Sequence record: MH791411.1
Direction: 5' to 3' (one strand)
DNA from: Escherichia phage Ecwhy_1
DNA: 64,000 nucleotides
Shown: one piece after another, positions 6,222-61,242 of the stretch
Position numbering within the stretch: the stretch's first letter is position 1
Layout: each line of letters starts with the position of its first letter
Notes under the pieces: generated by a model
The model's input: the letters and a program-made list of their open reading frames with translations, nothing else
Database searches by the model: none
Told to the model about the DNA's origin: nothing
Program-made: the position numbers and the translations under genes

Positions 6222-7013
6222 TTAGATTTCAAATACAAATTTAGGATCGTAATCGAAGTTCTCACATGCACCACTGTAAGATTCATAACCTCTTGGATTA
6301 CAAATGATACGAGTTTTCCCAATGTTGTAGTCAAAGCTACTATGAACGTGACCATGAATCCAAACATCAGCACCCAAATCTTCGATGTACTGGTCCATAT
6401 CAGAACAATAACATCCATTCAGTGAGTCATTCTTGTATCTCGGAGATACACTCTGATAACTTGGTGCATGATGTGTTACCACCACAACCTTGAAATCATT
6501 ATCATTCATTAGACGAACTGTGTTAACTGAATTTTTGATAAATTGTTTATCCTGATGATGCATGAACTCAACATCATCAGGTTTGAGCTTACGTTTCCAC
6601 GGTTCTGATGTTGTTCCATGACGAATGTGTTTATAATCATTCATCTTTTGTTGAGCATCAAACTTAACCAGTGCGTTGCCTTTATCAAAGTCAGTCCACA
6701 GTGTACTACCAACCAGCAGTACACCATCCAGCCATACAAATTTGTTTTGCAAAAAGATGAAATTTGGAATCTCATCTTGCATATCGGACAGTACTTTATT
6801 AGTCTTGTGAATGTTTGAACCGTAGTACTCATGATTACCAGGAACCAGTACTACATTCTTGAACTGCTTGCACAGGGATTCGATGCCAGTACGATAACGA
6901 CTACGTTTAACTTCATCAAAATCCCCAGCAATAATCAGTACTGTATCACTGTAATCACCACTATGGAGGTAATCAGTGCCACCGTGTACGTCTGACGTTA
7001 CAACAAATTTCAT
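6222..7013 (-). CDS. calcineurin-like metallophosphoesterase
   Basis: 263 aa; D-V-H-G, G-D-F-D and G-N-H-E metal-binding motifs in canonical order. Confidence 0.75.
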   Translation of the reverse strand: MKFVVTSDVHGGTDYLHSGDYSDTVLIIAGDFDEVKRSRYRTGIESLCKQFKNVVLVPGNHEYYGSNIHKTNKVLSDMQDEIPNFIFLQNKFVWLDGVLLVGSTLWTDFDKGNALVKFDAQQKMNDYKHIRHGTTSEPWKRKLKPDDVEFMHHQDKQFIKNSVNTVRLMNDNDFKVVVVTHHAPSYQSVSPRYKNDSLNGCYCSDMDQYIEDLGADVWIHGHVHSSFDYNIGKTRIICNPRGYESYSGACENFDYDPKFVFEI

Positions 7014-8462: not shown

Positions 8463-9665
8463 TTATAGATAATACTTTCCAATGTAAAGTTTATTACTTA
8501 GTGATAGCTGGACGTGACAAGGTTTTTCTTGGTAGTAACGAGTTGATGCTGTTTTATTTTCAGTTGGTGGGAAGAAAGGAGAACGGTATCCATTCCATGT
8601 ACCAAATGATACATGTTCGTTTAAATCCACATCCATTGTCATAATACCATTAGCATCAATTTCAACTGGATACGCACTGTATCGTTCAAATACATCAGTG
8701 TATTGAAGAATATAATCACCATTGCGACCATAATAACTTCTGGTTGTATTGTTCTTTACACCAAAGAAAACACGATATGCCTGTTCATCAACTTTACACA
8801 TGAACGGTACGTTCTCATTGAATCGTCCATTACTCATTATATCATCAGGATTGATTTCTTCGTACTTTACTTTCAAATCTTGTGCTTTAAACGACTTATC
8901 ACTTATCAGTACTGGAATATTGCTTTCACATAATGGGTTACTGCGATTTCGTTGGATATTTTGCCAAAATGCATTAGCTTTAACAATTTCATCTTGAACT
9001 GTAGTTTTTACATTCAGTGCAGCACTTGGTTCTAACGCATAAGTTTCAAGACGAGCATTAAGAGCATATGTCCCACGAGTAGTATTATATACTAAGTGAT
9101 ACTTGGAACTCTTATCAGAAAATGAAAACTCTTTAGTTTTCTTGATACAAATAGCATTTACTTTACCACAATAATAGTAATCTTCCTTATTGTGTCTAAA
9201 ACCATCACCCACTTTCAATTTAGAAACAACTTCTTTTTGATGTTCTTTCTTATTCTCCTTCTCAACCAATTTAGCAAAGGTTTTAGTTTTACCGTTAATT
9301 AGTTCTAAACTATTATTAAAGAACATAGGTTCAACAAATACACCCTTAACAATATCATTGTTGATGATAAGGTCGTTCATGTTTTTAGCACTCACCAAGA
9401 ACTCGAAACCTTCAGGGTGACGTATGGTGAAGTATGTTTCGCGAGCATGAACAGTGAGCTTATGTACCACAGAAAACCCAATTGTAGGCACATTATCAAT
9501 CCATAGTGAAGGTAGATTGTTTTTCTTAGCCCAGTACTCGGCCTTTTCTTTTTTAGTCTCAAACGCTTTTGTGTGTGATTTTGTGGCATCTATAATGTAA
9601 CCAGTAACTTGGTTATGATTTACATATGAACGAGCCACAAATAACTTCTCTGGAAAATCCATCAA
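8463..9665 (-). CDS. hypothetical protein (400 aa)
   Basis: Long uninterrupted ORF; no motif recognised. Confidence 0.55.
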   Translation of the reverse strand: MMDFPEKLFVARSYVNHNQVTGYIIDATKSHTKAFETKKEKAEYWAKKNNLPSLWIDNVPTIGFSVVHKLTVHARETYFTIRHPEGFEFLVSAKNMNDLIINNDIVKGVFVEPMFFNNSLELINGKTKTFAKLVEKENKKEHQKEVVSKLKVGDGFRHNKEDYYYCGKVNAICIKKTKEFSFSDKSSKYHLVYNTTRGTYALNARLETYALEPSAALNVKTTVQDEIVKANAFWQNIQRNRSNPLCESNIPVLISDKSFKAQDLKVKYEEINPDDIMSNGRFNENVPFMCKVDEQAYRVFFGVKNNTTRSYYGRNGDYILQYTDVFERYSAYPVEIDANGIMTMDVDLNEHVSFGTWNGYRSPFFPPTENKTASTRYYQEKPCHVQLSLSNKLYIGKYYL

Positions 9666-10081
9666 ACAGTCCTCATTGTGCTAATTGCTTTTAATGTGTT
9701 AAACAATGCACCATATTTTACTTGCATTAGTTGATCCCCAGCAGGAAGATTCATACGCATAACAGACATGTCTTCAACCATTTCAGATGTACATAGTACT
9801 GCTACACATGTAGTTGCATCATTTAATCCGGCTTCATTGAATTTAGCGAATGGCACTTTTCCCTGCTTACAAAGGTCATCATAATAAGAATTTAACTTAT
9901 CATGACCACCAGCATTTAGTACTACAATAGTTTCGTGGTCATAATACCATTCATCAATAATAGTACTGAAAGCAGTACCTTCATATTCTTTAATTAGTTT
10001 TATGCCAGCATGAAATGCTTGAATGCCAGCTTGGACACCTTGACAGTACATGTTTGTTAAGCAATATAATTTCATTTCCAT
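9662..10081 (-). CDS. hypothetical protein (weak resemblance to PTH2-type peptidyl-tRNA hydrolase)
   Basis: 139 aa; pattern K-x-hydrophobic ... Q-x-x-H-A followed by hydrophobic strand resembles PTH2, by eye only. Confidence 0.45.
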   Translation of the reverse strand: MEMKLYCLTNMYCQGVQAGIQAFHAGIKLIKEYEGTAFSTIIDEWYYDHETIVVLNAGGHDKLNSYYDDLCKQGKVPFAKFNEAGLNDATTCVAVLCTSEMVEDMSVMRMNLPAGDQLMQVKYGALFNTLKAISTMRTV

Positions 10082-10299
10082 ACCTCTTGTTTTTCTACAA
10101 ACCCTTTACCATCACAATGTGGACAAGCATAATAACTGCGATAGTCTTCAGATGGAACTTGTTGTGTACCATTACATGTAGGGCACACTTTACGTGCTCC
10201 AGAAATAATACGTTCATGGTGTTCAGCTTGTTTTGCTGAATCAAAAATACGACCATCTTCAGTTTGGTATTTTTCTACCATAACTTGAATTACTTTCAT
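10072..10299 (-). CDS. zinc-ribbon protein
   Basis: 75 aa; C-P-T-C ... C-P-H-C pair. Confidence 0.45.
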   Translation of the reverse strand: MKVIQVMVEKYQTEDGRIFDSAKQAEHHERIISGARKVCPTCNGTQQVPSEDYRSYYACPHCDGKGFVEKQEVWK

Positions 10300-10309
10300 T
10301 TCTATTTCC

Positions 10310-10615
10310 TTATAAAAATGTTAAATCTTCAGTACTTAATTGTAATAATTTACCATCATATTCAATTTCAACATATACATTTTGGTCATAAACAGCAACT
10401 ACACGACTAATAACTCCACTCTTCACCACATTCTTTTTGTAGTTGAATTCAACTGAGCAACCAATAAGTTTCTTTGATAGAATCTCACGTATTTGATTAG
10501 CATGGTCTTTTAGGATAGAATTAATAGATTTTTTCACAACATATCTATCATTTAAGTATTTTTTAACTACATCATGCATATTATTACCTTTTGAAGCGGT
10601 TAAATGAGTACTCAT
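10310..10615 (-). CDS. hypothetical protein
   Basis: 101 aa ORF. Confidence 0.45.
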   Translation of the reverse strand: MSTHLTASKGNNMHDVVKKYLNDRYVVKKSINSILKDHANQIREILSKKLIGCSVEFNYKKNVVKSGVISRVVAVYDQNVYVEIEYDGKLLQLSTEDLTFL

Positions 10616-11342
10616 CTTTTTCTTTACGTAAGTATCTCATCCCACCACTTTGGGGAGTTGCAAGAGTCAAATCACCAGTTAAGAACTGACTATCAATCCA
10701 GATACGATTACCATAAATGAGTGGGTCGGATACTGCGGTATGACCACTAAAGACGCAATGGATACCATCAAGTCTAGGGACGTAATATGTGTTATTTTTC
10801 TTGCAGTAGTCGAATGTATCACGGTCCCACAAGCACTTCTCAATTATATCAGCACTAAGTGATTTTGTCCCACTAACGAAACGTTCCCATGTGGTATATT
10901 CCAAAGGAACACCAGCATGAACCAGTCCAATCTTCAATCCTCGGTGATTGATTTGGATAATCATAGGGAGATCCTTTAAGTACTGACGGAAGAACTGTAT
11001 ACCTGTCTCACCAACTTCATCAATGAACTTATCTCCACCATTTTGTACCCAACAGTGATGCCAGTCACGGTGAGTTTCAGAATCAACGCACATGATCTCG
11101 TGGTTACCAGCAATCATAAAACGGTTTTCACCGAAAAGGAATTCAAACAGTAGTTTGGAATTCTGGTCACCACGGTCAATAACATCACCTACACAAAAAA
11201 CATAGTCATTATTGGTGATACCAAATTCTTTCTTGGTAGCATCCCACAGTTTTCCATTGCCGTGTAAATCACCAACGATATATAAATCTTTATCATCCGG
11301 TACTGTAACTTCCAAAAAATGTTTCATTATTGTTCCAACCAT
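10584..11342 (-). CDS. Ser/Thr protein phosphatase (lambda PPase / PPP family)
   Basis: 252 aa; G-D-L-H-G, G-D-V-I-D-R-G, G-N-H-E motifs. Confidence 0.8.
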   Translation of the reverse strand: MVGTIMKHFLEVTVPDDKDLYIVGDLHGNGKLWDATKKEFGITNNDYVFCVGDVIDRGDQNSKLLFEFLFGENRFMIAGNHEIMCVDSETHRDWHHCWVQNGGDKFIDEVGETGIQFFRQYLKDLPMIIQINHRGLKIGLVHAGVPLEYTTWERFVSGTKSLSADIIEKCLWDRDTFDYCKKNNTYYVPRLDGIHCVFSGHTAVSDPLIYGNRIWIDSQFLTGDLTLATPQSGGMRYLRKEKDEYSFNRFKR

Positions 11343-12133: not shown

Positions 12134-12730
12134 TTAATCACAGCTACCGGAACTTGAACTAGAGCTTGAATCACAGCTAGAGCTATCATATGAACCAGTA
12201 TCAGCAGAAGAGATATATGGCGTTACGATTGCTGCGGTGGTGGCTGCTGTAATAATATGGGAAGTATGGTCGTGTGTACCTTGTTGTGGTTCATCTTGGA
12301 CTTTGTTTTTATTCTTCCCTTTAGTATAGCGAGCTTTCTTTGTAGTTTTGGTGTTCTTTGGTGCTTTAGTACTTTTCGGTGCTGCTTTAGGCTTTACTTC
12401 ATTAACTACAGGAACAACAGTAACATTAACTTTAGGGTCAGATTCATCAAGTGCATTGTGAACATTCACTTGCATTTGAACTTCAACTTTAAGTTCTTCT
12501 TGTTCTTCAGGAATAACTTTTTCAGGTTCTGGTGTAACCTGATCACGTTTATCATTAATCATGAAGTTGATATTACGTTCACCTAGCACTAATAAAGTAA
12601 CGATGGTGAGTACTGGGGTTAGTACTAGACTAAGTAGTACATAGCCGATAACACTACGATTGTAATTGTATGCAAGCATACCTGCAATAACTACACCAAG
12701 TACACTAATAACTGCTGCGATTGTTAACAT
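12134..12730 (-). CDS. membrane protein with Lys-rich linker and Ser/Cys-rich tail
   Basis: 198 aa; two N-terminal TM helices, KPKAAPKSTKAPKNTKTTKK segment, C-terminal SSCDSSSSSSSGSCD. Confidence 0.5.
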   Translation of the reverse strand: MLTIAAVISVLGVVIAGMLAYNYNRSVIGYVLLSLVLTPVLTIVTLLVLGERNINFMINDKRDQVTPEPEKVIPEEQEELKVEVQMQVNVHNALDESDPKVNVTVVPVVNEVKPKAAPKSTKAPKNTKTTKKARYTKGKNKNKVQDEPQQGTHDHTSHIITAATTAAIVTPYISSADTGSYDSSSCDSSSSSSSGSCD

Positions 12731-13397: not shown

Positions 13398-13694
13398 TTA
13401 ATATATAATCTCACTTACTTCTATGGTGTAGACACCATCATCAGTCATTAATCTAACTGCAACTTTAATATTACTAGACATTCGTGTAACTATCAATCCA
13501 ATAATTATACCATTCTTTAAAGTACCATTATGGTATCTAACTTTTACTTCAGTTTTATTATCAATTAAGTATCTTCTAATTATGTGTATTTCCGTTCTAA
13601 ACAGTTCTAAATAAACTTCACTATACTCCTTATCAGAACCATCAGCACAGCTATACAATAAATGTACCTGTTCTAACAAAAGTTTTAAATTCAT
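13398..13694 (-). CDS. hypothetical protein
   Basis: 98 aa ORF. Confidence 0.45.
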   Translation of the reverse strand: MNLKLLLEQVHLLYSCADGSDKEYSEVYLELFRTEIHIIRRYLIDNKTEVKVRYHNGTLKNGIIIGLIVTRMSSNIKVAVRLMTDDGVYTIEVSEIIY

Positions 13695-14050
13695 AAGAAC
13701 CTCACAGATTTAATATTACTTGTTACATGTTTAAACACAGTGTTATCGAACTTGTAAACAATTGTATTAAGTGATTTATGAAAATTAACCTCGCACACTA
13801 ATGCCTTGGAACCATTGATTGTACAGACCGTGGATGGTAAGTTGTTTGCTAATATCTCTTTTTCATCTAAACATAGTGAACTAATACAATCATAATAGAG
13901 AGGTTCAAGAACTTTTTCAGTACTAAGAAAATCGAAAGCAAGATCATCTATTTGTTTTATGTAATTGAATAAATTTTGATAGTACTCATTCATGGTCGAT
14001 CCTCTTGAATTTAGCATTATTCGAATAAGTATATGAATGTCCAAAATCAT
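13691..14050 (-). CDS. hypothetical protein
   Basis: 119 aa ORF, ATGA-type overlap. Confidence 0.45.
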   Translation of the reverse strand: MILDIHILIRIMLNSRGSTMNEYYQNLFNYIKQIDDLAFDFLSTEKVLEPLYYDCISSLCLDEKEILANNLPSTVCTINGSKALVCEVNFHKSLNTIVYKFDNTVFKHVTSNIKSVRFL

Positions 14051-14240
14051 TTACACCATGCACATTCAATACACCGTCAATGAAATAGATTCGGTCGATT
14101 GTTAGTTCACGTTTATAATCCGAATCATCATACCAGCACAGAACACGAATACCTTTATACTTTGTAGTTAGCTCTTTTTCTAATGTAACTAAGTACTCGA
14201 TATAACTTTTGAATAGCTCTAAGTCCTGCTCAAACATCAT
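13986..14240 (-). CDS. hypothetical protein
   Basis: 84 aa ORF. Confidence 0.4.
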   Translation of the reverse strand: MMFEQDLELFKSYIEYLVTLEKELTTKYKGIRVLCWYDDSDYKRELTIDRIYFIDGVLNVHGVNDFGHSYTYSNNAKFKRIDHE

Positions 14241-14497
14241 TGTTCCTCGTATAATTCCATGTCATCAACTCCAACTTGGCGAATTGCAGTACTTCTTTTA
14301 AATGTACCTTTTTCATATAAACATACAGTTAAACGTATTTCACACTTCAATGCACTGTAATAAATCATATCAATAACACCATATGTTTCATACATTTCTA
14401 AGTATACATTTCGTCCTAAGTACTTTTCTTCTAAATCAGTAATTAGACTATTGATAAGATTACCTATCTGTGATATATCTGTGTGAAATTTATCCAT
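14237..14497 (-). CDS. hypothetical protein
   Basis: 86 aa ORF. Confidence 0.45.
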   Translation of the reverse strand: MDKFHTDISQIGNLINSLITDLEEKYLGRNVYLEMYETYGVIDMIYYSALKCEIRLTVCLYEKGTFKRSTAIRQVGVDDMELYEEQ

Positions 14498-14742
14498 TAC
14501 AATAATCCTCTCACATAAAACATTGATGAAAATAGATAATCTTCAGTACTAGAATTTAGTAGTTTATCAAAACTATATTTTTTATGCTTATTTTTATACA
14601 AAGACATTCTATAGAATCTTTCTATATTTTCTAAGTATTCATTTCGTAATAACATCTGTGTTGTTACATTCACTATAATGTACCTTAAAAGAAAAAGGGA
14701 CCAATATATGATCCCTTTTGTATTAGAAATTACCTTCAGCAA
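14497..14742 (-). CDS. hypothetical protein (start uncertain)
   Basis: 81 aa ORF overlapping 3' end of the kinase gene. Confidence 0.3.
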   Translation of the reverse strand: MLKVISNTKGIIYWSLFLLRYIIVNVTTQMLLRNEYLENIERFYRMSLYKNKHKKYSFDKLLNSSTEDYLFSSMFYVRGLL

Positions 14743-15655
14743 CTTGCATTACTTTCAACCCAAGTAGCTTACGCCACATGAATACAACTTGTGATCTATC
14801 ATCATAAACCTTTTTAACATCGTAATGATCAACCACATTTTTCATGTACAGGTCGAATTTTACAACATCATCAGGACGTTTGTCATCGATGCCTCGCATA
14901 AACAACGCATCATAAGGAACACCCCAATTCTTAAGCCACTGTTCGGTATCAGCACGACACCCTTCAGTACGCCCACTCATGACGATAATCTTGCGTTTAT
15001 GAAAAACTGCTTCAGCGATAACAGATAAAATAACTTCTTCGTCTGGTGTATCCTGGAGTACAGTACTTTCATCGAACGGGTTACGTCCCCATTTATGAGC
15101 AAGAGTACCGTCGATATCAACGATAATAGCAGCTTCTCGTGAATTACCATAGTAACCAATGTGTAATGCCTTACTATAATAGTACGTATCTGCCATAGTG
15201 TCAATGATATTATCTTGTACTGAACGCTCACGCTGGAGGTTATATTTCTTACAAAGTTTTACGAACTCTTTAATCTTAAAGAATTCATGAACATCTGCAC
15301 CACGGTCTTCATTAGGTACAAAATCATCATAGAAGTTCTTTTCTTTGTAATCATAACCATTATCTATAGCCCATACTTTCCATAGATTACGGAAATGTTG
15401 TTTAAGGTTCGTATCGGATATGATGATGTTCCAACCATTCTCTGCTGCTGAATTTGCTGCACTGAACTGTAAATTAGTTACGTACTGCTCATTAGCATCG
15501 TTGAATTTGTAAGCATCATGTGACCCAGCCATAGATTCACGAATATCATCACGGTTGATGTTGATAGTCTTGGATTTGGCTTTTTTAATCTCTTGCACTG
15601 CCCATGTAGTTTTACCACACCCAGGCAATCCAACTGTTAGTGTGATAGTTGGCAT
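14723..15655 (-). CDS. polynucleotide 5'-kinase/3'-phosphatase (T4 Pnk-like)
   Basis: 310 aa; N-terminal Walker A G-L-P-G-C-G-K-T-T, C-terminal HAD motif V-D-I-D-G-T-L. Confidence 0.85.
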   Translation of the reverse strand: MPTITLTVGLPGCGKTTWAVQEIKKAKSKTININRDDIRESMAGSHDAYKFNDANEQYVTNLQFSAANSAAENGWNIIISDTNLKQHFRNLWKVWAIDNGYDYKEKNFYDDFVPNEDRGADVHEFFKIKEFVKLCKKYNLQRERSVQDNIIDTMADTYYYSKALHIGYYGNSREAAIIVDIDGTLAHKWGRNPFDESTVLQDTPDEEVILSVIAEAVFHKRKIIVMSGRTEGCRADTEQWLKNWGVPYDALFMRGIDDKRPDDVVKFDLYMKNVVDHYDVKKVYDDRSQVVFMWRKLLGLKVMQVAEGNF

Positions 15656-15658
15656 CCA

Positions 15659-15988
15659 TTAATCCTCTAAAAATTTAACATGCTCTATATTATGATAGGT
15701 GAGCCATTCCTGTGGTGTTCCCTTGCGTATTAAAACACCAATATACGCAATACCATTAATTAGACCATTACTATCAGTATTCACATCAACTTTCACAATC
15801 TCGGAATCGTACCAGTGTTTGAATGTGTAATCCCAACATCTGACTTTCTTTCCAATAAGATTGCTCTTGTATTTGTCAATCATTTCATCGACGATAGTTT
15901 GTACTGAATTTTTAATTTCAGCTTCTACTGACTTTATATATAGTAAATTACTTTGTGCATTGTTTATCATTGTATTTCCCAATCCCAA
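15659..15988 (-). CDS. hypothetical protein
   Basis: 109 aa ORF. Confidence 0.45.
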   Translation of the reverse strand: MGLGNTMINNAQSNLLYIKSVEAEIKNSVQTIVDEMIDKYKSNLIGKKVRCWDYTFKHWYDSEIVKVDVNTDSNGLINGIAYIGVLIRKGTPQEWLTYHNIEHVKFLED

Positions 15989-16184
15989 ATCGCTTGGAGA
16001 TTTTCACAAGTACAGATTCATCACAACGAATACTAGCAGTATCATTGGATGAACTGTACTTTAATGGGGTCCACTGTAATTGAGATTCTTCTAGGAACTT
16101 GATACATCTGAAATAATCTTTCAAGGAAAGAAATTTAACTACTGACATATCCTGAACAATACTATGCTGAACTTCAACTTTCAT
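15948..16184 (-). CDS. hypothetical protein
   Basis: 78 aa ORF. Confidence 0.4.
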   Translation of the reverse strand: MKVEVQHSIVQDMSVVKFLSLKDYFRCIKFLEESQLQWTPLKYSSSNDTASIRCDESVLVKISKRFGIGKYNDKQCTK

Positions 16185-16193
16185 ATGAACTCC

Positions 16194-16451
16194 TTATAGT
16201 GGGTCGAATTTATTTTCACGTTTTGATGTATAGCGAGTTACATCATGTATTCTCGGCTTAACACCTTTTGGTTTCCTTTTCTTCTTGTATTCAGTACTAC
16301 TACACCCGAAAGTATTCTCGATTCGTTTCTTACTAATCTTCACACCTTTCTTAGAGCGTTTGTGCTGTAATTCATCGATTTCTTCTTGTATTTTCCTGAA
16401 TTCTGTCGGAGAAAGGGAACCGTCATTTTTATACTTAGGTTTAGCCATCAC
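16194..16451 (-). CDS. small basic protein
   Basis: 85 aa, Lys/Arg-rich (KKKRKPKGVKPR). Confidence 0.45.
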   Translation of the reverse strand: MMAKPKYKNDGSLSPTEFRKIQEEIDELQHKRSKKGVKISKKRIENTFGCSSTEYKKKRKPKGVKPRIHDVTRYTSKRENKFDPL

Positions 16452-16477
16452 TTCTCCTTGTGCTAGGCTAGATAGTA

Positions 16478-17620
16478 CTAAAAATCCTTTAGTACAATTT
16501 TCATGTACTTAATAAGAGTCTCTTTGTAATCGACTTTCTTATTGTTGTACATTGCAAAGGCCAAGCCCTGACGATTCAGTTCATTAGTTAAACACTCCTG
16601 AACCTTCTTAGCGAATTCCTTTCGCTCCAAGTGCTTGTGTTCCTTGACGAAGCTTTCAACTTCATCTTGTAAAGCATTATAGCACGAAAAGACTAGTTGT
16701 TCCATTCTTAATATCTTTTGGGTAGCATATTCGTCAGTACTGAACAACTGTTTTAAATCATCACTCGAACCATTTAATACAGCTTCATATAAATGGGAAT
16801 CGAATATAATACTGTCTTTCGTTAAATGCAAAGAACAATACCAGTCGGTTTTGATTTTGCACATTGTACCATTATTTAGGATGCACACAAAACCTTCAAT
16901 GTCAAGCATTTTCTTAACTTCTTCAACACTTTCTTTGAATGTAGCACGAACAGGGAAAGTGTAATGAATATCTTTACCTGTCATGTTAGTACTGTACTGT
17001 GCAAGGCATGGAAACTTGTTACGTAATGCAGAACCACATAATAGTTCACCACTCTTGCGATGGCGAACGTTTAGTACAAATATTTGTTCAACCTGGTATG
17101 GTAATACAATACGGTACTCTGGACTTGTATACTCCAGATTAACAGTATAGCCCAAACGGTCTGCTTCGTCAATGTATTGATACAAATTTTGGTTCTCATT
17201 GAGAAGACGAGTACTGTTAATCGCATGGTCTGAATACAATGCAGTATGTGATTTACAACGAATTACACCATCATTATCACGGTAAGTACTGATTACTGAA
17301 CCATCCAACTTAGGCATCACTACTGCAATGTCATCGAATGTGGTATCAGCAGGGAACATTGTAGCAGGATTTTCGTAAGCATTGAAGAACTTTTTCATAG
17401 TACGAGCAGCACAACGAATCATATCACCGTCTTCATCAATTTCCCACATAGAACCACGGGTTTCTAATGCATTGGGTTGCATGAAATCGGTATATGATGC
17501 TAGACGATAACTGAATACACGATATGTTCCACCAGCAGGACTTTTATGATCCACATAAAAGAAAGCCTCACGAGTATTACATAAGTGCATTAAATCTTCA
17601 TATATTTGTAAAAGGGTCAT
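16478..17620 (-). CDS. rnlA: RNA ligase 1 (T4 Rnl1-like)
   Basis: 380 aa; collinear with T4 Rnl1 as I recall it: FFY-x-D, TYR-x-FSY-x-x-ASY, adenylation motif K-L-D-G-S-V-I-S-T-Y, IEGFV, K-I-K-T-D-W-Y-x-S-L-H, G-S-S-D-D-L-K. Confidence 0.88.
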   Translation of the reverse strand: MTLLQIYEDLMHLCNTREAFFYVDHKSPAGGTYRVFSYRLASYTDFMQPNALETRGSMWEIDEDGDMIRCAARTMKKFFNAYENPATMFPADTTFDDIAVVMPKLDGSVISTYRDNDGVIRCKSHTALYSDHAINSTRLLNENQNLYQYIDEADRLGYTVNLEYTSPEYRIVLPYQVEQIFVLNVRHRKSGELLCGSALRNKFPCLAQYSTNMTGKDIHYTFPVRATFKESVEEVKKMLDIEGFVCILNNGTMCKIKTDWYCSLHLTKDSIIFDSHLYEAVLNGSSDDLKQLFSTDEYATQKILRMEQLVFSCYNALQDEVESFVKEHKHLERKEFAKKVQECLTNELNRQGLAFAMYNNKKVDYKETLIKYMKIVLKDF

Positions 17621-17925
17621 TTTATTACCTCTATATCTACATCTGTGCCATAGTAGGAAACGTAACCATTATCTGAATTACATTGAATTGATAACTCTGA
17701 TTCATAGTATGTTACTTTGATCACTGTTAGAACTTTTTCATCAATTTTTCCCGTTAAATAATCCATTTCACGAACACGAACTTTGGTTCCTTTTGGGAGT
17801 TCTTGTGCAATTTTATTAACAAGTTCAAAAGCAGCTTCTTCAAGTGTGTGCAACAATTGCAATCTATCTTGGATATTCATATTATTTCCACCAAGTTGTA
17901 TCACGACCACCAGACAAAGATTCAT
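17617..17925 (-). CDS. hypothetical protein
   Basis: 102 aa ORF. Confidence 0.45.
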   Translation of the reverse strand: MNLCLVVVIQLGGNNMNIQDRLQLLHTLEEAAFELVNKIAQELPKGTKVRVREMDYLTGKIDEKVLTVIKVTYYESELSIQCNSDNGYVSYYGTDVDIEVIK

Positions 17926-18571
17926 TGTACTGATGCCTGAAATTAGTATTTGGATTATTTGTCATTGTACTAATAAAATCAAATTTAACATTCTCTTGAA
18001 TGTAATTAATAACATTATCTTTAAATTTAATAGTACTGAAATCTAAATCCAAATGTTCATACAATACCGGATGACAAAACTCATGTGTACGCAACGATGG
18101 CATGGTATCCTTAATGTATTGCACAGTGTTAATCATTGCATTGTATTCAGGCATAGCACGCATCATCATTAGCTGAAAGTGTTCTTCCTCTGACATTGAC
18201 TCATCCAAATCAATAACGACTTCATCATTTTTAGAGTCATATACTTTAATGGAACTCTTGGTTGGATCAAGCATAGCCCACTCTGGATACAGGCATGTTT
18301 TCCAAAAAGGATTATTGCACTGAAACATACTAATTAGATTTTGATTTTTATCAAAAATAGCAAACCCAAGATCCGAACTTGGCTGTACTTCACATACACA
18401 AATATCATAAGGGGAGTCTTCAGTACTGAATGAACCAACTACATTTGATATATGTGAATATGGAGTTTCTCTTGATTTTAATTCAAAGGCTCTCTCCATA
18501 CGATTAACCTGTGGTTGTAATGTAATTACACCCCTCAGTACATATAAAATTCTATCTAAATCTTTAATCAA
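17882..18571 (-). CDS. hypothetical protein with family-A-like EEEHFQLMMM segment
   Basis: 229 aa; S-E-E-E-H-F-Q-L resembles the family A core. Confidence 0.5.
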   Translation of the reverse strand: MIKDLDRILYVLRGVITLQPQVNRMERAFELKSRETPYSHISNVVGSFSTEDSPYDICVCEVQPSSDLGFAIFDKNQNLISMFQCNNPFWKTCLYPEWAMLDPTKSSIKVYDSKNDEVVIDLDESMSEEEHFQLMMMRAMPEYNAMINTVQYIKDTMPSLRTHEFCHPVLYEHLDLDFSTIKFKDNVINYIQENVKFDFISTMTNNPNTNFRHQYNESLSGGRDTTWWK

Positions 18572-43221: not shown

Positions 43222-43360
43222 CTTGTTCCTGATACTGTGTGCCCAAATACATCAGTACTTTTAATTCTTTGAATTCAGTACTATATGAGTCAATTTGCAT
43301 CATTTTAGAAGAATATATATTGAATAGTTTAGCAATATCATCTTGGTCTATTATTTTCAT
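43169..43360 (-). CDS. family B paralog (interspersed copy)
   Basis: 63 aa; Y-L-G-T-Q-Y-Q-E-Q-V-V. Confidence 0.45.
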   Translation of the reverse strand: MKIIDQDDIAKLFNIYSSKMMQIDSYSTEFKELKVLMYLGTQYQEQVVKEYIDSLQKDIRYVQ

Positions 43361-43556
43361 ATATTCTCTTCTGGATTAGTTCCTGTAAGTGCTGAATATA
43401 ACCCTTCATTGCAACATCCTGTTTGTTAGAGCCAACGAAGAACAATAGCTTAAAGTCATGGTAATCCATTTTTGGTTTAGTAGTGAACCATATGTCCCAC
43501 ACTGCACTCACAGTTCTCATGTATTCAATTCGATTAAATGTTTTTGAATACTTCAT
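43338..43556 (-). CDS. family B paralog (interspersed copy)
   Basis: 72 aa; F-V-G-S-N-K-Q-D-V. Confidence 0.45.
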   Translation of the reverse strand: MKYSKTFNRIEYMRTVSAVWDIWFTTKPKMDYHDFKLLFFVGSNKQDVAMKGYIQHLQELIQKRIYENNRPR

Positions 43557-55211: not shown

Positions 55212-55622
55212 CTAATCGTGCCATTTAATAGGATACTCCGTTCCATTTATTGTATAAGATATAATCCATCCGTAATGAATAGGATGATTTTTGTCTGAAA
55301 CAGGAATAAAATATAAAGATGTACTGGGGTTATAACTGAATAAATCGTTGTTACCAATTGTAAAATGTGATAACTCAATCTTCCTTGTACCTGTACTTGG
55401 ACGAAGAACATTCTTAACACCGAAGACTGTACCTTGATATTTCTCGGAAAATTCAAACAATGCATCTGCAATTAAATCACGAAACTCCGCATGTATGGTT
55501 TCAAAAAAATCTATATTACACGATGTTTTAATATCCTTGAACTCCTTATATAAAGAGCTTCTTGTATTCAAAAGAAATATTACTTTTTTAAGATCCTGAA
55601 CTATTTCTGGATTCATATTCAT
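55212..55622 (-). CDS. hypothetical protein
   Basis: 136 aa ORF. Confidence 0.5.
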   Translation of the reverse strand: MNMNPEIVQDLKKVIFLLNTRSSLYKEFKDIKTSCNIDFFETIHAEFRDLIADALFEFSEKYQGTVFGVKNVLRPSTGTRKIELSHFTIGNNDLFSYNPSTSLYFIPVSDKNHPIHYGWIISYTINGTEYPIKWHD

Positions 55623-55872
55623 TTATCTCATTCTGTAACTTAAGCATCAAAATTTGCATATTAATTTTTTGTACAAGATGATTGAGAAATTTCTGTACTG
55701 TATCTTCTTGTTCTTTTGTACCAAGATAAAATAACATATTAAATTCAGATAATCTCAGAGCGAAATCTTCCTCTCCCCCTCGTAAACAAAAATCCCTGTA
55801 CTTTGAAGCATACAAATAAGCATCTATCTTTTTATACCTTTGGGTCTGCATTGTATCTCCTTTTTCATGCAC
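55588..55872 (-). CDS. family B paralog (interspersed copy)
   Basis: 94 aa; F-Y-L-G-T-K-E-Q-E-D-T-V. Confidence 0.5.
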   Translation of the reverse strand: MHEKGDTMQTQRYKKIDAYLYASKYRDFCLRGGEEDFALRLSEFNMLFYLGTKEQEDTVQKFLNHLVQKINMQILMLKLQNEINEYESRNSSGS

Positions 55873-57524: not shown

Positions 57525-57866
57525 TTAGTACTCAACGATGTGTTCTTCATAACCATTAAACTCCGGTTTAGTTTCTTTCATTAGGACTACCATTTTATGT
57601 ACTAATGGCATAGGAAATTCTAAATCCCATACTAATGATTCTTGAAAGTATTCTTCTTCAGATAAAGTACTTAAATCTTTAATATCAACGTGCTTGTATA
57701 TTTTATTTTCGTAATTAAGAAATGATATATATAAATCATTAACATCAGAATCATAAGTAATTGTGAATGGCTTACCCTTGTAGTCCATTACATCTTTACA
57801 TAGACTGCATTTGATATATGTATGTTCTTCTGAACTGTATACATTGAGTTGTATATTAGTTTTCAT
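57525..57866 (-). CDS. family A paralog
   Basis: 113 aa; S-E-E-E-Y-F-Q-E-S-L-V-W-D. Confidence 0.55.
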   Translation of the reverse strand: MKTNIQLNVYSSEEHTYIKCSLCKDVMDYKGKPFTITYDSDVNDLYISFLNYENKIYKHVDIKDLSTLSEEEYFQESLVWDLEFPMPLVHKMVVLMKETKPEFNGYEEHIVEY

Positions 57867-58140
57867 ATTTCTCTTTATTAGCTTGTTTAGATTGTGTGGT
57901 TTTATAGTGAATTAAATCTATTAATGTAATCAAGTACAACGTCAAATAGTACTCTTGTTGATCTGTACCTAATGATACAAAGAACTTGTGCTCATAGATT
58001 AAAACCTGTTTCTCATAACAAGAACACTTAATCCTATGTATAGGTTTCAGTAAATGTGAGTACTTATTAAATCTCATACCCATTTCTATTTCAGATAGTA
58101 CTTTCATATTAAACATGTACTCCATTAGCTGTAGCATCAC
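57856..58140 (-). CDS. family B paralog
   Basis: 94 aa; S-L-G-T-D-Q-Q-E-Y-Y-L. Confidence 0.5.
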   Translation of the reverse strand: MMLQLMEYMFNMKVLSEIEMGMRFNKYSHLLKPIHRIKCSCYEKQVLIYEHKFFVSLGTDQQEYYLTLYLITLIDLIHYKTTQSKQANKEKYEN

Positions 58141-58330
58141 GTAAAGCTCTCAAATACTTCTGTACTGCTTGCTCTTGATGATCTGTACCTAAAAGTATAT
58201 ACATCCATAATTCACTGTAATGTACATCTTGTGTATAAGGGTTGTTGTAACTTTTTGATAATATAGCATCAAATTCAGATGCATGAACCCTTGCGAACTT
58301 AAGCATATCTTGTTGTGTTATGATTCTCAT
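58109..58330 (-). CDS. family B paralog
   Basis: 73 aa; L-G-T-D-H-Q-E-Q-A-V. Confidence 0.55.
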   Translation of the reverse strand: MRIITQQDMLKFARVHASEFDAILSKSYNNPYTQDVHYSELWMYILLGTDHQEQAVQKYLRALRDATANGVHV

Positions 58331-58542
58331 ATCTTTTCCTGTACTATCTGCATAAGAATCTCTATGTGTGAATTAACAGTTCTCTCTTGATGCTGTGTTC
58401 CTAAGAGTGTCAGTACTATCATATCTGAACGCAAAAGATTTTTTTCAAGTTCACTTATATCAGTTCTTGAATCAAGTGCCATATATTTGTGATTATTCTT
58501 CCTGAATAGTGCCAAGTACTCTTGATTTGATATTTCCTTCAT
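58327..58542 (-). CDS. family B paralog
   Basis: 71 aa; L-G-T-Q-H-Q-E-R-T-V. Confidence 0.55.
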   Translation of the reverse strand: MKEISNQEYLALFRKNNHKYMALDSRTDISELEKNLLRSDMIVLTLLGTQHQERTVNSHIEILMQIVQEKI

Positions 58543-58778
58543 AGTTTATCCCTGATGCCATTTAAAAGTGCTCTAATATGCTCCTGTACGAATTTGTACT
58601 GACTGTCTGTTCCTAGAGTGAGTAGTAATCTTAAATCTGAACTTTTGATATGATATTCTAAATCATTATTTGATTCTTGCATCAGTTTCTTAAAGGATGA
58701 GAAGTTTGCAGCCATTAGTTCAATGTATTCTGCTGTTCCTAGGGGTTTGTGTATTGGCTGTTTGTGCTGTCTGTGCAT
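58539..58778 (-). CDS. family B paralog
   Basis: 79 aa; L-G-T-D-S-Q-Y-K-F-V. Confidence 0.55.
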   Translation of the reverse strand: MHRQHKQPIHKPLGTAEYIELMAANFSSFKKLMQESNNDLEYHIKSSDLRLLLTLGTDSQYKFVQEHIRALLNGIRDKL

Positions 58779-58990
58779 TTTAATTTTATTACCCTTTTGA
58801 GTGTATTAATGTAATTATACACATTGGCTTCTTGATAGTTTGTTCCTAGAGTAGCTTGAACGTAGATTTCATTTAACTTAATAATTTTATCAGTATCTGG
58901 AAGTTTTGATGTGTTAATGGCAAATAACTTCGAAAACAGTCCATTTATGATTGTTAGGTATTCTTCGTCGGTAATGATTCGCATTTGCAT
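58739..58990 (-). CDS. family B paralog
   Basis: 83 aa; L-G-T-N-Y-Q-E-A-N-V. Confidence 0.55.
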   Translation of the reverse strand: MQMRIITDEEYLTIINGLFSKLFAINTSKLPDTDKIIKLNEIYVQATLGTNYQEANVYNYINTLKRVIKLKCTDSTNSQYTNP

Positions 58991-59196
58991 TGGATAAACC
59001 TTTTTAGTTCTTTGATGTAATCATTAATATTACATTCTTGATAGTTAGTCCCTAGGGTAGAATTAACATAGATTTCACTCATTAGAATATTTTTTTCTTC
59101 ATCAGGTAAATCTGTGGTCTTTGCTATATACAATTTTAGAATTAAACTACTTAATAGTTCGTGGTATTCACTTGGTGAAAGGATTTTCATTTGCAT
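58954..59196 (-). CDS. family B paralog
   Basis: 80 aa; L-G-T-N-Y-Q-E-C-N-I. Confidence 0.55.
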   Translation of the reverse strand: MQMKILSPSEYHELLSSLILKLYIAKTTDLPDEEKNILMSEIYVNSTLGTNYQECNINDYIKELKRFIQCKCESLPTKNT

Positions 59197-59402
59197 GTTC
59201 TCAGTACAGATTCTTTAAGTTCATCGATGTAGTCCTCAACGAATTGCTCTTGGAAGTTAGTTCCAACATATAAAAGAACTCTTAAATCTGCTCTAAGTAA
59301 CTCTTTTTCATCCTCATCTATATCAGACAATGTTATGTTTAAGAATTTACTTGTATTAAAGATTAACAATTCTGTTTGTTCACTGTGGCTTAAAATTTTC
59401 AT
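59187..59402 (-). CDS. family B paralog
   Basis: 71 aa; V-G-T-N-F-Q-E-Q-F-V. Confidence 0.55.
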   Translation of the reverse strand: MKILSHSEQTELLIFNTSKFLNITLSDIDEDEKELLRADLRVLLYVGTNFQEQFVEDYIDELKESVLRTCK

Positions 59403-59610
59403 AATCTCTTTTTGCTTTCCTCGACAGTAGGTACAAATACGATTCTTCGTATTGTGCTTGGAAGTTTGTGTTTAAGAGTCGAAACAACTTCTGTTCTGCT
59501 AGAACGAGTTGCTTATCTTCATAACAACGGTAGCGTATCAACTTTTTGTATTCGATGTTGATTACATCCATTACTATAAGCCCATGTTCATCATCTGTCA
59601 AGTGCTTCAT
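59380..59610 (-). CDS. family B paralog
   Basis: 76 aa; L-N-T-N-F-Q-A-Q-Y. Confidence 0.5.
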   Translation of the reverse strand: MKHLTDDEHGLIVMDVINIEYKKLIRYRCYEDKQLVLAEQKLFRLLNTNFQAQYEESYLYLLSRKAKRDYENFKPQ

Positions 59611-59848
59611 GCTTTTTTCTTTTCCTGATGTGTTTAGTTAAAAGGTATATTAGTTTTCTGATGTATTCTTCTTGATAGTTTGTTCCTAGGAGTGCCAGAA
59701 GTTTTGCTTCAACTAAAGCTAATTGACGTTCTTCAAATGTGTGTTCCAGTATGTACTTTGGGTTTGATTTTTTAGATATTGCACTATTAGTTTTCATTAC
59801 AATCTTATGATATTCATTAACTGTTAGGATTTTTAAATTCTTGAGCAT
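59591..59848 (-). CDS. family B paralog
   Basis: 85 aa; L-G-T-N-Y-Q-E-E-Y-I. Confidence 0.55.
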   Translation of the reverse strand: MLKNLKILTVNEYHKIVMKTNSAISKKSNPKYILEHTFEERQLALVEAKLLALLGTNYQEEYIRKLIYLLTKHIRKRKKHEALDR

Positions 59849-60074
59849 GTACCTTTTCCTTTATAGAGAATTTAAGATATCGAAGCATACTTTCAATGTA
59901 ATACTCTTGTCTGTCAGTGCCAAGAAAGTACATGAGTTGAATGTATAAAACTTCTGCACTCCTTTCGGCATGTGACTTGTTTGTGTCGTTTGGAAGTTGA
60001 TTTGTAAGTTTTCTGGATTTAATTAGTCGTTCTTTTAACTCATCGTCTGTTAAGTATTTCATTTCATTTTGCAT
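59817..60074 (-). CDS. family B paralog (MQNEM trio)
   Basis: 85 aa; F-L-G-T-D-R-Q-E-Y-Y-I. Confidence 0.55.
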   Translation of the reverse strand: MQNEMKYLTDDELKERLIKSRKLTNQLPNDTNKSHAERSAEVLYIQLMYFLGTDRQEYYIESMLRYLKFSIKEKVHAQEFKNPNS

Positions 60075-60294
60075 TTACTTTTTCCTTAATACTCATTACA
60101 AGATGTTCAATCATATTTTGAACCATAAATTCTTGTTTATCAGTTCCAAGAACGTATGGTAGCTTCTGAAACAATACATTCGCAGACATTTCATATATTG
60201 ATTGATTTGGAACGAACTTAAGAGTAATGTTATTGGCTTTTAACATCTTCTCTTGAAATTCTTCATTCGTTAAGTATATCATTTCACTTTGCAT
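60064..60294 (-). CDS. family B paralog (MQNEM trio)
   Basis: 76 aa; V-L-G-T-D-K-Q-E-F-M-V. Confidence 0.55.
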   Translation of the reverse strand: MQSEMIYLTNEEFQEKMLKANNITLKFVPNQSIYEMSANVLFQKLPYVLGTDKQEFMVQNMIEHLVMSIKEKVNAK

Positions 60295-60520
60295 TTACTT
60301 TTTCCATAATAGTAATTTTGAGATATTTAATTATACGTTCAATGTGATACTCTTGCCTATCAGTTCCAAGAATGTATGGTAATCTTTGGAATAAAACTTC
60401 TGCACTCCTTTCCGCTGGGGTTTGGTTTGGGTTGTGTGGAAGATATTTTGTAAGTTTTTTGGATTTATCTAGTCTTTCTGTTAACTCATCATGTGTTAAG
60501 TATATCATTTCATTTTGCAT
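60284..60520 (-). CDS. family B paralog (MQNEM trio)
   Basis: 78 aa; I-L-G-T-D-R-Q-E-Y-H-I. Confidence 0.55.
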   Translation of the reverse strand: MQNEMIYLTHDELTERLDKSKKLTKYLPHNPNQTPAERSAEVLFQRLPYILGTDRQEYHIERIIKYLKITIMEKVNAK

Positions 60521-60756
60521 TTAATGTTCCTTACGTAAATTGTCTGGATTAAACAATCAATCCAAGTTTGAATATATTGGTTTTGATACTGTGTGCCTAA
60601 GAGACTCTGCATTTTAAACTCTGCTTCAAGTTCATATCTCTTTTCTATAGAAAAGCTCAAATGACCATATTCTTTATCGTATCTTCTCAGTGCTTCCCCA
60701 ATTCTATCAAATCTTTCTGCTAATCTGATGTTATTCACAATATTCATCGCATTCAT
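60505..60756 (-). CDS. family B paralog
   Basis: 83 aa; L-G-T-Q-Y-Q-N-Q-Y-I. Confidence 0.55.
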   Translation of the reverse strand: MNAMNIVNNIRLAERFDRIGEALRRYDKEYGHLSFSIEKRYELEAEFKMQSLLGTQYQNQYIQTWIDCLIQTIYVRNIKCKMK

Positions 60757-61031
60757 CGATCAGTACACCTCAGTGGTTGGGTCATTTGATGAAAGTACAG
60801 CTTACCTCTGATTTCCAGTAGTAACTCAGCAATTAAGCGATTTACTTCTGGCTCTTGATAGTTTGTTCCTAAGAATACACCCATCTTTAACTCACGCATC
60901 ATAATCATTTTCTTACTGTGTTGAATTTCTGGGTTGTGATAGATTGTATTACGTTTGTGCGTAATTTTTGTCATACGCTCGGTATATTCATCTTTACTTA
61001 AATTGATCATTTGCATGTTCATCAACCTCAC
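60753..61031 (-). CDS. family B paralog
   Basis: 92 aa; L-G-T-N-Y-Q-E-P-E-V. Confidence 0.55.
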   Translation of the reverse strand: MRLMNMQMINLSKDEYTERMTKITHKRNTIYHNPEIQHSKKMIMMRELKMGVFLGTNYQEPEVNRLIAELLLEIRGKLYFHQMTQPLRCTDR

Positions 61032-61242
61032 ATTTATTTTCGATACAAATCATGAGTTCTCTAAGATAGTTTTTTACCTTACCTGCCTGATAGTTCGTCC
61101 CCAGGAAGTTGCATAACTCTGCTTCTATCATTTTGATTCTTCTGTTATCAGGTTTCAATTTTTTGTTATTGAAGATTTGAATCCTTATATCCCTTGATGC
61201 ATTTAAACGTTTTTGATATTCATGGAAAGATAAATTAATCAT
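60994..61242 (-). CDS. family B paralog
   Basis: 82 aa; L-G-T-N-Y-Q-A-G-K-V. Confidence 0.55.
   Translation of the reverse strand: MINLSFHEYQKRLNASRDIRIQIFNNKKLKPDNRRIKMIEAELCNFLGTNYQAGKVKNYLRELMICIENKCEVDEHANDQFK

What the first reader, a model, noticed from the sequence alone, without database searches (positions are those of the whole stretch)
14723..17620. RNA-repair pair: polynucleotide kinase/phosphatase plus RNA ligase 1
A T4 Pnk-type bifunctional kinase/phosphatase (14723-15655) and a T4 Rnl1-type RNA ligase (16478-17620, KLDGS adenylation motif) lie 0.8 kb apart. In T4 this pair heals and seals host tRNA cleaved by anticodon nucleases. Their presence implies the phage expects tRNA-targeting host defence. 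The nearby ORF 9662-10081 has a weak PTH2-like pattern, possibly another translation-apparatus function.
Basis: established knowledge. Interest (0 to 1): 0.5.

Follow-up and report, generated by a model that had tools for sequence, protein, structure and literature searches.

The report
Phage tRNA repair kinase and ligase
This jumbo E. coli phage carries intact copies of the two phage T4 enzymes that mend cut transfer RNAs, a known and already annotated feature, so the finding is correct but ordinary.

The parts
16478..17620 (-). RNA ligase 1 (T4 RnlA family), 380 aa. The adenylyltransferase domain is about aa 1-262 (16835-17620). The Rnl1-specific C-terminal domain is aa 268-379 (16484-16819).
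   Evidence: It is 38% identical to T4 Rnl1. The T4 reference sequence was verified against NC_000866.
17297..17311 (-). Ligase motif I, KLDGS. Lys104 is the predicted AMP-attachment site.
   Evidence: K, D, G and S are invariant in 118 homologs.
17246..17254 (-). Ligase motif Ia, K123-S124-H125. His replaces T4 Lys119; Lys123 and Ser124 are conserved.
   Evidence: the column reads H 46, K 40, Q 18, N 14.
16850..16897 (-). Ligase motifs IV (E242, G243) and V (K255, K257).
   Evidence: all four are invariant in the family.
16194..16451 (-). Small basic protein ('basic85'), function unknown. It lies directly after the ligase. Its true start is probably the second Met, at 16448.
   Evidence: phrog_15306, unknown function. 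It is conserved directly after Rnl1 in the 15 jumbo-phage loci where it was detected, L005 and L007-L021, but not in L006, and it is 60% identical in L002. It occurs in 55 phage records, all of this clade.
15948..16184 (-). Small protein 'orf78', function unknown, directly upstream of Pnk in relatives.
   Evidence: phrog_14730. It has 24 invariant columns across 15 sequences and occurs in 70 phage records of this clade. The predicted fold is a generic ferredoxin-like one.
15659..15988 (-). ORF of 109 aa (103 aa as annotated), labelled 'transcriptional regulator' in the record. It appears to be a recent insertion between orf78 and Pnk.
   Evidence: It was found only in the 94%-identical relative L005 among 80 loci. 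There is no Pfam hit.
14723..15655 (-). Bifunctional polynucleotide 5'-kinase/3'-phosphatase (T4 PseT type), 310 aa. The kinase domain is about aa 1-165 (15161-15655) and the HAD phosphatase domain is aa 173-310 (14726-15139).
   Evidence: It is 38% identical to T4 Pnk.
15608..15631 (-). Kinase P-loop, GLPGCGKT (residues 9-16).
15104..15118 (-). Phosphatase DxDxT motif, DIDGT (residues 180-184). Asp180 is the predicted nucleophile.
   Evidence: D, D and T are invariant in 120 homologs.
14693..14719 (-). Terminator-like hairpin (11-bp stem followed by a T-run), 3 nt after the Pnk stop codon.
   Evidence: A hairpin plus T-run at this position, with different stem sequences, occurs in about 11 of 17 jumbo-phage loci.
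9662..10081 (-). PTH2-fold hydrolase-like protein. Its probable true start is Met3 at 10075, giving 137 aa.
   Evidence: It is collinear with the Rnl1/Pnk block in the jumbo clade.

Best explanation
The two genes encode an active heal-and-seal RNA repair pair of the phage T4 type. They lie in one tightly packed, same-strand cassette: ligase, two or three small ORFs, kinase/phosphatase, terminator.

[quoted passage not shown] The C-terminal HAD domain of Pnk (nucleophile Asp180) removes the 3'-end phosphate. The N-terminal P-loop kinase (Lys15, Asp36, Arg39, Arg142) phosphorylates the 5'-OH. The ligase is adenylylated on Lys104, transfers AMP to the 5'-phosphate and seals the loop. Its Rnl1-specific C-terminal domain is expected to direct it to tRNA.

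What is shown: gene presence, family membership, conservation of the catalytic residues, conserved gene order, and the presence of further tRNA-maintenance genes in the same genome. What is inferred: enzymatic activity, tRNA as the substrate, and a role against host defence.
For: Family matches come from four independent libraries and from the T4 crystal-structure sequences.

Residue mapping used T4 sequences verified against NC_000866. Pnk has K15, T16, D36, R39, R142, D180, D182, T184, R191, R229, D262, D285 and D286. Rnl1 has R55, K77, F79, K104, D106, G107, E163, E242, G243, K255 and K257, all invariant or nearly so in 118 homologs.

The Rnl1 C-terminal domain, which confers tRNA specificity in T4 (PMC6379707), is detected at E 1.7e-16.

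The gene order matches T4: rnlA, four small ORFs, pseT. Pnk lies downstream on the same strand in 46 of 80 viral Rnl1 loci. Gaps within the cassette are 26, 9 and 3 nt with one 41-nt overlap, and it ends in a positionally conserved terminator.

The same genome encodes an RlaP RNA-repair nucleotidyltransferase, a CCA-adding enzyme and 6 tRNAs.

The literature states that T4 Pnk and Rnl1 repair PrrC-cut tRNA (PMC12409363), and that jumbo phages carry Rnl1/Rnl2, PNK-HAD, RlaP and PTH2 as an RNA-repair kit (PMC7824862).
Against: No activity, substrate or phenotype was tested. T4 Rnl1 Lys119 is His125 here. I recall Lys119 being reported as essential for the RNA-adenylylation step, but the primary paper is not held. 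One secondary source instead names K117A as the severe mutant (PMC4797309). Whether the hosts of this phage carry an anticodon nuclease is unknown. There are no tRNA genes in the window. A ligase relative at 42% identity has no Pnk within 6 kb, so the linkage is common but not obligatory.
Confidence: 0.8

Rival explanations
1. The pair repairs or processes RNA in general rather than specifically countering an anticodon nuclease. Possible substrates are phage or host mRNA, rRNA or tRNA cut by toxin RNases, or the phage's own tRNA processing.
For: Jumbo phages carry several ligase types that are thought to deal with different RNases (PMC7824862). Many E. coli systems cut or modify tRNA in different ways (PMC12409363). 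Motif Ia differs from T4 in this clade, which could reflect a different substrate end.
Against: The Rnl1-specific C-terminal domain, which gives tRNA specificity in T4, is retained. The T4 gene order is retained. Co-resident CCA-adding and RlaP genes point to tRNA.
Confidence: 0.2
2. The ligase homolog serves mainly as a tail-fibre attachment factor, the second activity of T4 gp63, and RNA joining is secondary.
For: The T4 rnlA record and phrog_562 both carry the label 'RNA ligase and tail fiber protein attachment catalyst'.
Against: All ligase catalytic residues are under strict conservation. The gene sits with Pnk among early-type small ORFs and not with structural genes. Tail-fibre attachment was not tested and cannot be tested here.
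Confidence: 0.08
3. One or both genes are inactive relics kept only by genome collinearity.
For: His replaces T4 Lys119 in the ligase. There is a clade-specific insertion of about 20 aa in the kinase domain. One metagenomic relative (L007) has a split Pnk.
Against: Both ORFs are full-length and all nucleophiles and metal- or phosphate-binding residues are invariant across more than 100 homologs. The His/Gln/Asn variation and the insertion are shared by the whole clade. The L007 twin contig L008 has an intact Pnk.
Confidence: 0.03

Closest known systems
Phage T4 PseT (Pnk) and RnlA (Rnl1, gp63), the countermeasure to the PrrC anticodon nuclease
   Same: The domain architectures are the same: P-loop kinase plus HAD phosphatase, and adenylyltransferase plus the Rnl1 C-domain. 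The catalytic residues are the same. The transcriptional order, ligase then small ORFs then kinase on one strand, is the same.
   Different: Identity is only about 38%. The intervening small genes are unrelated: T4 alc and pseT.1-3 have no homolog in the window. Motif Ia has His where T4 has Lys119. The kinase domain carries an extra ~20 aa. The gap is 0.8 kb here against 1.4 kb in T4.
RNA-repair toolkit of jumbo phages as surveyed by Iyer et al. 2021 (PMC7824862)
   Same: Rnl1, PNK-HAD, RlaP, a CCA-adding enzyme, PTH2 and a few tRNAs occur together in one genome.
   Different: Nothing essential differs; this phage is an instance of that description. The two conserved small cassette proteins did not come up in the passages of that paper I read.
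Archaeal/eukaryotic peptidyl-tRNA hydrolase Pth2 (for ORF 9662-10081)
   Different: It scores below the Pfam and NCBIfam curated cutoffs. It has Glu in place of Asp86, and Gln17 where I recall Lys18. It has an extra C-terminal helical segment of about 35 aa.
Bacterial Pnkp/Hen1 and fungal/plant Trl1 heal-and-seal systems
   Same: The logic is the same: kinase plus phosphoesterase heals the ends, and an ATP-dependent ligase with an Rnl1-like N-terminal subdomain seals them (PMC6379707; PMC2190708).
   Different: Those are fused multidomain proteins. They use a metallophosphoesterase or 2H phosphoesterase, and a different ligase C-domain. No Hen1-type methyltransferase was found here: the record's '2'-O-MTase domain' label on 13398-13694 has no Pfam support.

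Membership tests
T4 PseT-type polynucleotide kinase/phosphatase | N-terminal P-loop kinase with GxxGxGK(S/T) | tested here: met
   GLPGCGKT at residues 9-16. G9, G14 and K15 are invariant in 120 homologs.
T4 PseT-type polynucleotide kinase/phosphatase | Kinase residues equivalent to T4 Asp35, Arg38 and Arg126 | tested here: met
   D36 and R39. In the pairwise alignment Arg126 fell on Gln141, but the 120-sequence alignment places it on Arg142, and that column is Arg in 117 of 120.
T4 PseT-type polynucleotide kinase/phosphatase | C-terminal HAD phosphatase with DxDxT and the equivalents of T4 Arg176, Arg213, Asp254 and Asp277/278 | tested here: met
   D180, D182, T184, R191, R229, D262, D285 and D286, invariant in the family. 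Pfam HAD_PNKP scores 146.9 bits against a cutoff of 27.6.
T4 PseT-type polynucleotide kinase/phosphatase | 5'-kinase, 3'-phosphatase and 2',3'-cyclic phosphodiesterase activities | not testable with these tools
   This needs purified protein.
Rnl1 (T4 RnlA) RNA ligase | Motif I KxDG with the lysine nucleophile | tested here: met
   K104-L-D106-G107-S108, invariant in 118 homologs.
Rnl1 (T4 RnlA) RNA ligase | Rnl1-type N-terminal subdomain residues (T4 Arg54, Lys75, Phe77) and motifs III, IV and V (Glu159, Glu227, Gly228, Lys240, Lys242) | tested here: met
   R55, K77, F79, E163, E242, G243, K255 and K257.
Rnl1 (T4 RnlA) RNA ligase | Motif Ia basic residue (T4 Ser118-Lys119) | tested here: inconclusive
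   S124 is conserved, but the Lys119 position is His125. The family column is H 46, K 40, Q 18, N 14, while K117 is invariant. The primary mutagenesis paper is not held. PMC4797309 names K117A as the severe mutant.
Rnl1 (T4 RnlA) RNA ligase | Rnl1-specific C-terminal domain, which confers tRNA specificity in T4 | tested here: met
   Pfam T4_Rnl1_C at E 1.7e-16, covering residues 268-379. The role of this domain in T4 is taken from PMC6379707.
Rnl1 (T4 RnlA) RNA ligase | Curated equivalog score | tested here: met
   TIGR02308 scores 291.3 bits against a cutoff of 242.25.
Pth2 peptidyl-tRNA hydrolase (ORF 9662-10081) | Pth2 fold | tested here: met
Pth2 peptidyl-tRNA hydrolase (ORF 9662-10081) | Curated family thresholds | tested here: not met
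   Pfam PTH2 scores 22.7 bits against a cutoff of 23. The NCBIfam Pth2 equivalog scores 18.1 against 126. Of 99 family members, 42 hit PTH2 at E <= 0.01.
Pth2 peptidyl-tRNA hydrolase (ORF 9662-10081) | Active-site residues (S. solfataricus Lys18 and Asp86, recalled from memory) | tested here: inconclusive
   Asp86 aligns with the near-invariant Glu83, and Q21 and H24 are shared with true Pth2 enzymes. The Lys18 position is Gln17. The source paper for these residues is not held.

The most novel reading that the evidence does not exclude
In the RaK2/121Q-type jumbo phages, the tRNA repair pair may be a larger dedicated module. The two small proteins fixed between ligase and kinase are an 85-aa highly basic protein and a 78-aa ferredoxin-like protein. 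Both are at least as conserved as the enzymes and are absent from T4. They could be uncharacterised accessory factors of the repair reaction, for example tRNA-binding or targeting subunits, or inhibitors of a host nuclease. The divergent PTH2-fold hydrolase would be a third arm that strips the peptide or amino acid from damaged tRNA before repair. This is suggested by its position between the CCA-adding and RlaP genes in unrelated phages.
Probability: 0.2. Interest if true: 0.5.

Novelty: already known. Interest (0 to 1): 0.15.

Why it matters
The finding confirms that this therapeutic-candidate jumbo coliphage carries the classic T4 countermeasure to tRNA-cutting host defences, together with further tRNA-maintenance genes. 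That is useful for annotation: the GenBank record lists the ligase as 'hypothetical protein' and truncates the kinase name. It is also useful for predicting which defence systems the phage may resist. It does not change what is known about RNA repair. The two conserved small cassette proteins and the PTH2-like family are concrete, cheap targets for anyone looking for new parts of phage tRNA repair.

Tried and rejected
1. The pairwise alignment suggested that the kinase had lost Arg126 (it fell on Gln141). The 120-sequence alignment rejected this and placed it on Arg142.

2. I considered that His at ligase position 119 might mean inactivation. I rejected this as unsupported because the substitution is clade-wide and its neighbours Lys and Ser are invariant. 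I could not retrieve the primary T4 mutagenesis paper.

4. Pattern-based scans for PTH2-like loci in viral contigs failed with both alignments and with two distant single members. I replaced them with tblastn against annotated phages.

5. I tested whether Gp291, labelled 'aminoacyl-tRNA hydrolase', is a paralog of the PTH2-like ORF. There is no Pfam hit, and hhalign gives a probability of 0.9%, so this is not supported.

6. An iterative search for a wider family among the ~100-aa ORFs around the pair found only two members. My impression by eye of a large shared family is not supported at this sensitivity.

7. The sigma-70 promoter scan gave no more sites than shuffled sequence, so no promoter is assigned.

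8. The record's labels 'Nop10', '2'-O-MTase domain' and 'transcriptional regulator' on small ORFs in the region have no Pfam support, and I did not use them.

9. Collinearity of the PTH2-like gene with Rnl1/Pnk inside the jumbo clade reflects shared genome order, so I did not count it as independent evidence of function.
Full report
**Origin of the window.** Bases 14000-18000 match Escherichia phage fEgEco12 (PP777464.1, 374,733 bp) at 100% identity. They match 34 other PBECO4/121Q-type jumbo phages of E. coli and Salmonella at 80-99.8%. Window position x corresponds to record position 85917 - x. The whole region is transcribed on the minus strand and has about 34% G+C.

- The first ORF matches Pfam HAD_PNKP (5.8e-43) and AAA_33, phrog_505 'polynucleotide kinase' (3.5e-94, full length), and the T4 Pnk crystal-structure sequence 1ltq (5.8e-38).
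- The second matches Pfam RNA_lig_T4_1 and T4_Rnl1_C, phrog_562 (7.7e-108), and T4 Rnl1 structures 2c5u and 5tt6 (about 1e-56). It passes NCBIfam's curated equivalog model for the T4 RnlA family, at 291 bits against a cutoff of 242.

**Residue-level check.** I aligned both proteins to the T4 sequences, which I later verified to be identical to the translations of NC_000866. Identity is about 38% for each.

- Pnk kinase domain: the P-loop GLPGCGKT (K15, T16), D36 and R39 are present.
- Pnk phosphatase domain: DIDGT (D180, D182, T184), R191, R229, D262, D285 and D286 are present.
- T4 Arg126 fell on Gln141 in the pairwise alignment, next to a clade-specific insertion of about 20 aa. A 120-sequence family alignment places it on Arg142, and that column is Arg in 117 of 120.
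- Ligase: R55, K77, F79, K104-L-D106-G107-S108, E163, E242, G243, K255 and K257 correspond to T4 Arg54, Lys75, Phe77, Lys99, Asp101, Gly102, Glu159, Glu227, Gly228, Lys240 and Lys242. All are invariant or nearly so in 118 homologs.

The one departure is motif Ia, where T4 has F-K117-S118-K119-G and this protein has C-K123-S124-H125-T. Across the family, the Lys117 and Ser118 columns are invariant, while the 119 column reads H 46, K 40, Q 18, N 14. H, Q and N are typical of the jumbo-phage clade and K of T4-like members. From memory, Lys119 was reported as needed for the RNA-adenylylation step in T4, but that paper is not in the library. A secondary source describes K117A as the most severe mutant and says Lys117 buttresses Ser118 and Arg54 (PMC4797309). 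In fungal Trl1, the motif Ia lysine contacts the ATP beta-gamma phosphates and is proposed to bind the RNA 5'-phosphate (PMC6379707). I read His125 as a clade trait of uncertain mechanistic meaning and not as a sign of decay.

**Anatomy of the cassette.** The genes are tightly packed on one strand:

1. Ligase, then a 26-nt gap.
2. An 85-aa very basic protein (16194-16451), then a 9-nt gap.
3. A 78-aa protein (15948-16184), which overlaps the next ORF by 41 nt.
4. A 109-aa ORF (15659-15988), then a 3-nt gap.
5. Pnk.
6. Three nucleotides after the Pnk stop codon, an 11-bp GC-rich hairpin followed by a T-run (14693-14719).

A hairpin plus T-run in the same position, but with different stem sequences, occurs in about 11 of 17 related jumbo-phage loci. 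The terminator is therefore conserved in position while its sequence has diverged, and Pnk is probably the last gene of its transcription unit. No promoter could be assigned, because sigma-70-like sites are no more frequent than in shuffled sequence.

**Comparison with other phages.**

- In T4 the order on one strand is rnlA, alc, pseT.3, pseT.2, pseT.1, pseT, with 1.4 kb between ligase and kinase. The record notes that rnlA repairs tRNA in restrictive prr hosts together with PseT.
- Among 80 viral contigs carrying an Rnl1 relative, 46 have a Pnk relative within 10 kb. In every case it is on the same strand and downstream, at +0.4 to +4.2 kb. This includes most of the T4-like contigs of about 170 kb. 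The arrangement is inherited and is not special to this phage.
- The linkage is not obligatory. Many loci with full flanks lack Pnk, as does a 341-kb contig whose ligase is 42% identical.
- T4's intervening genes have no homolog in the window.
- In the 17 jumbo-phage loci (ligase 55-94% identical) a long block is collinear: a 245-aa protein, ligase, basic85, orf78, Pnk, and several kb on, a lambda-type Ser/Thr phosphatase, the PTH2-like protein, a 400-aa protein, and ATP-dependent DNA ligase.
- A more distant metagenomic relative, with a ligase 46% identical, keeps ligase, basic85 (60% identical), Pnk and the PTH2-like gene in the same order.
- The 109-aa ORF between orf78 and Pnk is found only in the closest relative and looks like a recent insertion.

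**The PTH2-like ORF (9662-10081).** Pfam PTH2 is marginal for this protein (22.7 bits, cutoff 23) and the NCBIfam Pth2 equivalog is far from met.

- An exhaustive search found 719 representative relatives. Of 99 aligned members, 42 hit PTH2 (best 2.5e-8), and the three best PDB profile hits are all Pth2 enzymes.
- Family-invariant Q21 and H24 correspond to the Q-x-x-H-A motif of true Pth2 enzymes. Near-invariant E83 aligns with S. solfataricus Asp86. The position where I recall Lys18 is Gln17. So the fold is Pth2 and the active site is partly conserved.
- Context outside the clade is informative. The family occurs in 269 phage records. In a Vequintavirinae Klebsiella phage and in an unrelated 137-kb Vibrio phage, the gene lies between a CCA-adding enzyme (PolyA_pol head plus HD) and an RlaP RNA-repair nucleotidyltransferase.
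- In a T4-like Aeromonas phage it lies next to DNA ligase, as it does here. In a Schizotequatrovirus it lies among nucleotide-metabolism genes and is annotated as peptidyl-tRNA hydrolase.

It agrees with the proposal that phage PTH2 frees peptides from cut tRNAs during ribosome rescue (PMC7824862).

**Wider genome.** The fEgEco12 genome paper's supplementary table names Gp182 'RNA ligase' and Gp186 'polynucleotide kinase'. It also lists a tRNA nucleotidyltransferase, an 'aminoacyl-tRNA hydrolase' and 6 tRNA genes near 295 kb (PMC13070987). I confirmed that Gp249 is an RlaP family member (4.5e-17) and that Gp284 is a CCA-adding-type enzyme. Gp291 has no Pfam support and is not detectably related to the PTH2-like family. 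No second RNA ligase is annotated.

**Mechanism and rivals.** The best-supported reading is the T4 heal-and-seal pathway. The HAD domain clears the 3' end, the kinase phosphorylates the 5' end, and the ligase seals the tRNA anticodon loop, with the Rnl1 C-domain providing tRNA specificity. Gene identity and intact active sites are shown. Activity, substrate and defence context are inferred.

- Rival 1: a broader RNA-repair role. This is plausible, given the many tRNA- and RNA-targeting systems now known in E. coli (PMC12409363).
- Rival 2: a tail-fibre attachment role for the ligase. This is an inherited annotation and is untestable here.
- Rival 3: inactivity. This is contradicted by the strict conservation of the catalytic residues.

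**Verdict.** The finding is correct and its interpretation is supported, but it is already known. Relatives annotate both genes. The phage's own paper lists them. The general phenomenon in jumbo phages has been described. I rate interest as low. The small additions are the motif Ia His, the two conserved small cassette proteins, the positionally conserved terminator, and the tRNA-repair neighbourhood of the PTH2-like family in other phages.

Noticed in passing
window 33084-57866, plus 17882-18571: There is a paralogous family of 32 ORFs (103-229 aa) on the minus strand, found by all-against-all phmmer at E < 1e-3. One member lies just upstream of the ligase, with one small ORF (17617-17925) between them. 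Representatives hit only PHROGs of unknown function.
   Followed up: partly
window 57856-63814 (also 43338-43556 and 55588-55872): There are 27 paralogous ORFs of 65-94 aa in a near-perfect head-to-tail array. They belong to phrog_4148, function unknown.
   Followed up: partly
window 16478-17620 and 14723-15655, as annotated in PP777464.1: The GenBank record lists the ligase (g182) as 'hypothetical protein' and truncates the kinase product name to 'polynucleotide 5'. The paper's supplementary table names both correctly.
   Followed up: yes
window 12134-12730, 13398-13694, 15659-15988: The record labels these 'ribosome biogenesis protein Nop10', 'SAM-dependent 2'-O-MTase domain-containing protein' and 'transcriptional regulator'. 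None has any Pfam support. The labels look like over-interpreted weak matches.
   Followed up: partly
window about 15260-15330 (Pnk residues about 110-131): An insertion of about 20 aa in the kinase domain, just before the Arg142 region, is shared by the jumbo-phage clade. It is absent from T4 and from the bacterial relatives.
   Followed up: partly
L087:3691-6538 and L089:2578-6948: In a Vibrio phage and a Vequintavirinae Klebsiella phage, the PTH2-like gene lies between a CCA-adding enzyme and an RlaP nucleotidyltransferase. In the Klebsiella phage a DUF7205 protein also lies between them.
   Followed up: partly
window 10072-10299: A 75-aa protein with a DnaJ-type CXXCXGXG zinc-finger pattern (below the Pfam cutoffs) overlaps the start of the PTH2-like ORF as listed by 10 nt. 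It is present near the PTH2-like gene in 5 of the 17 jumbo loci.
   Followed up: no
window 10584-11342 and 6222-7013: Two calcineurin-type metallophosphoesterases lie in the same collinear block. One is a lambda/NinI-type Ser/Thr phosphatase. Lambda phosphatase has 2',3'-cyclic phosphodiesterase activity in vitro (PMC2190708), so a role in RNA-end healing is conceivable but untested.
   Followed up: no
L007:11868-12804: Pnk is split into two overlapping ORFs in this metagenomic contig, whereas its near-identical twin L008 has it intact. This is probably a sequencing frameshift.
   Followed up: no
L085:769-2007 (fEgEco12 record 106768-108006, outside the window): Gp249 is 'hypothetical protein' in the record and 'nucleotidyltransferase' in the paper's table. 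It is an RlaP-family RNA-repair nucleotidyltransferase (Pfam 4.5e-17). Gp291, labelled 'aminoacyl-tRNA hydrolase', has no Pfam support.
   Followed up: partly
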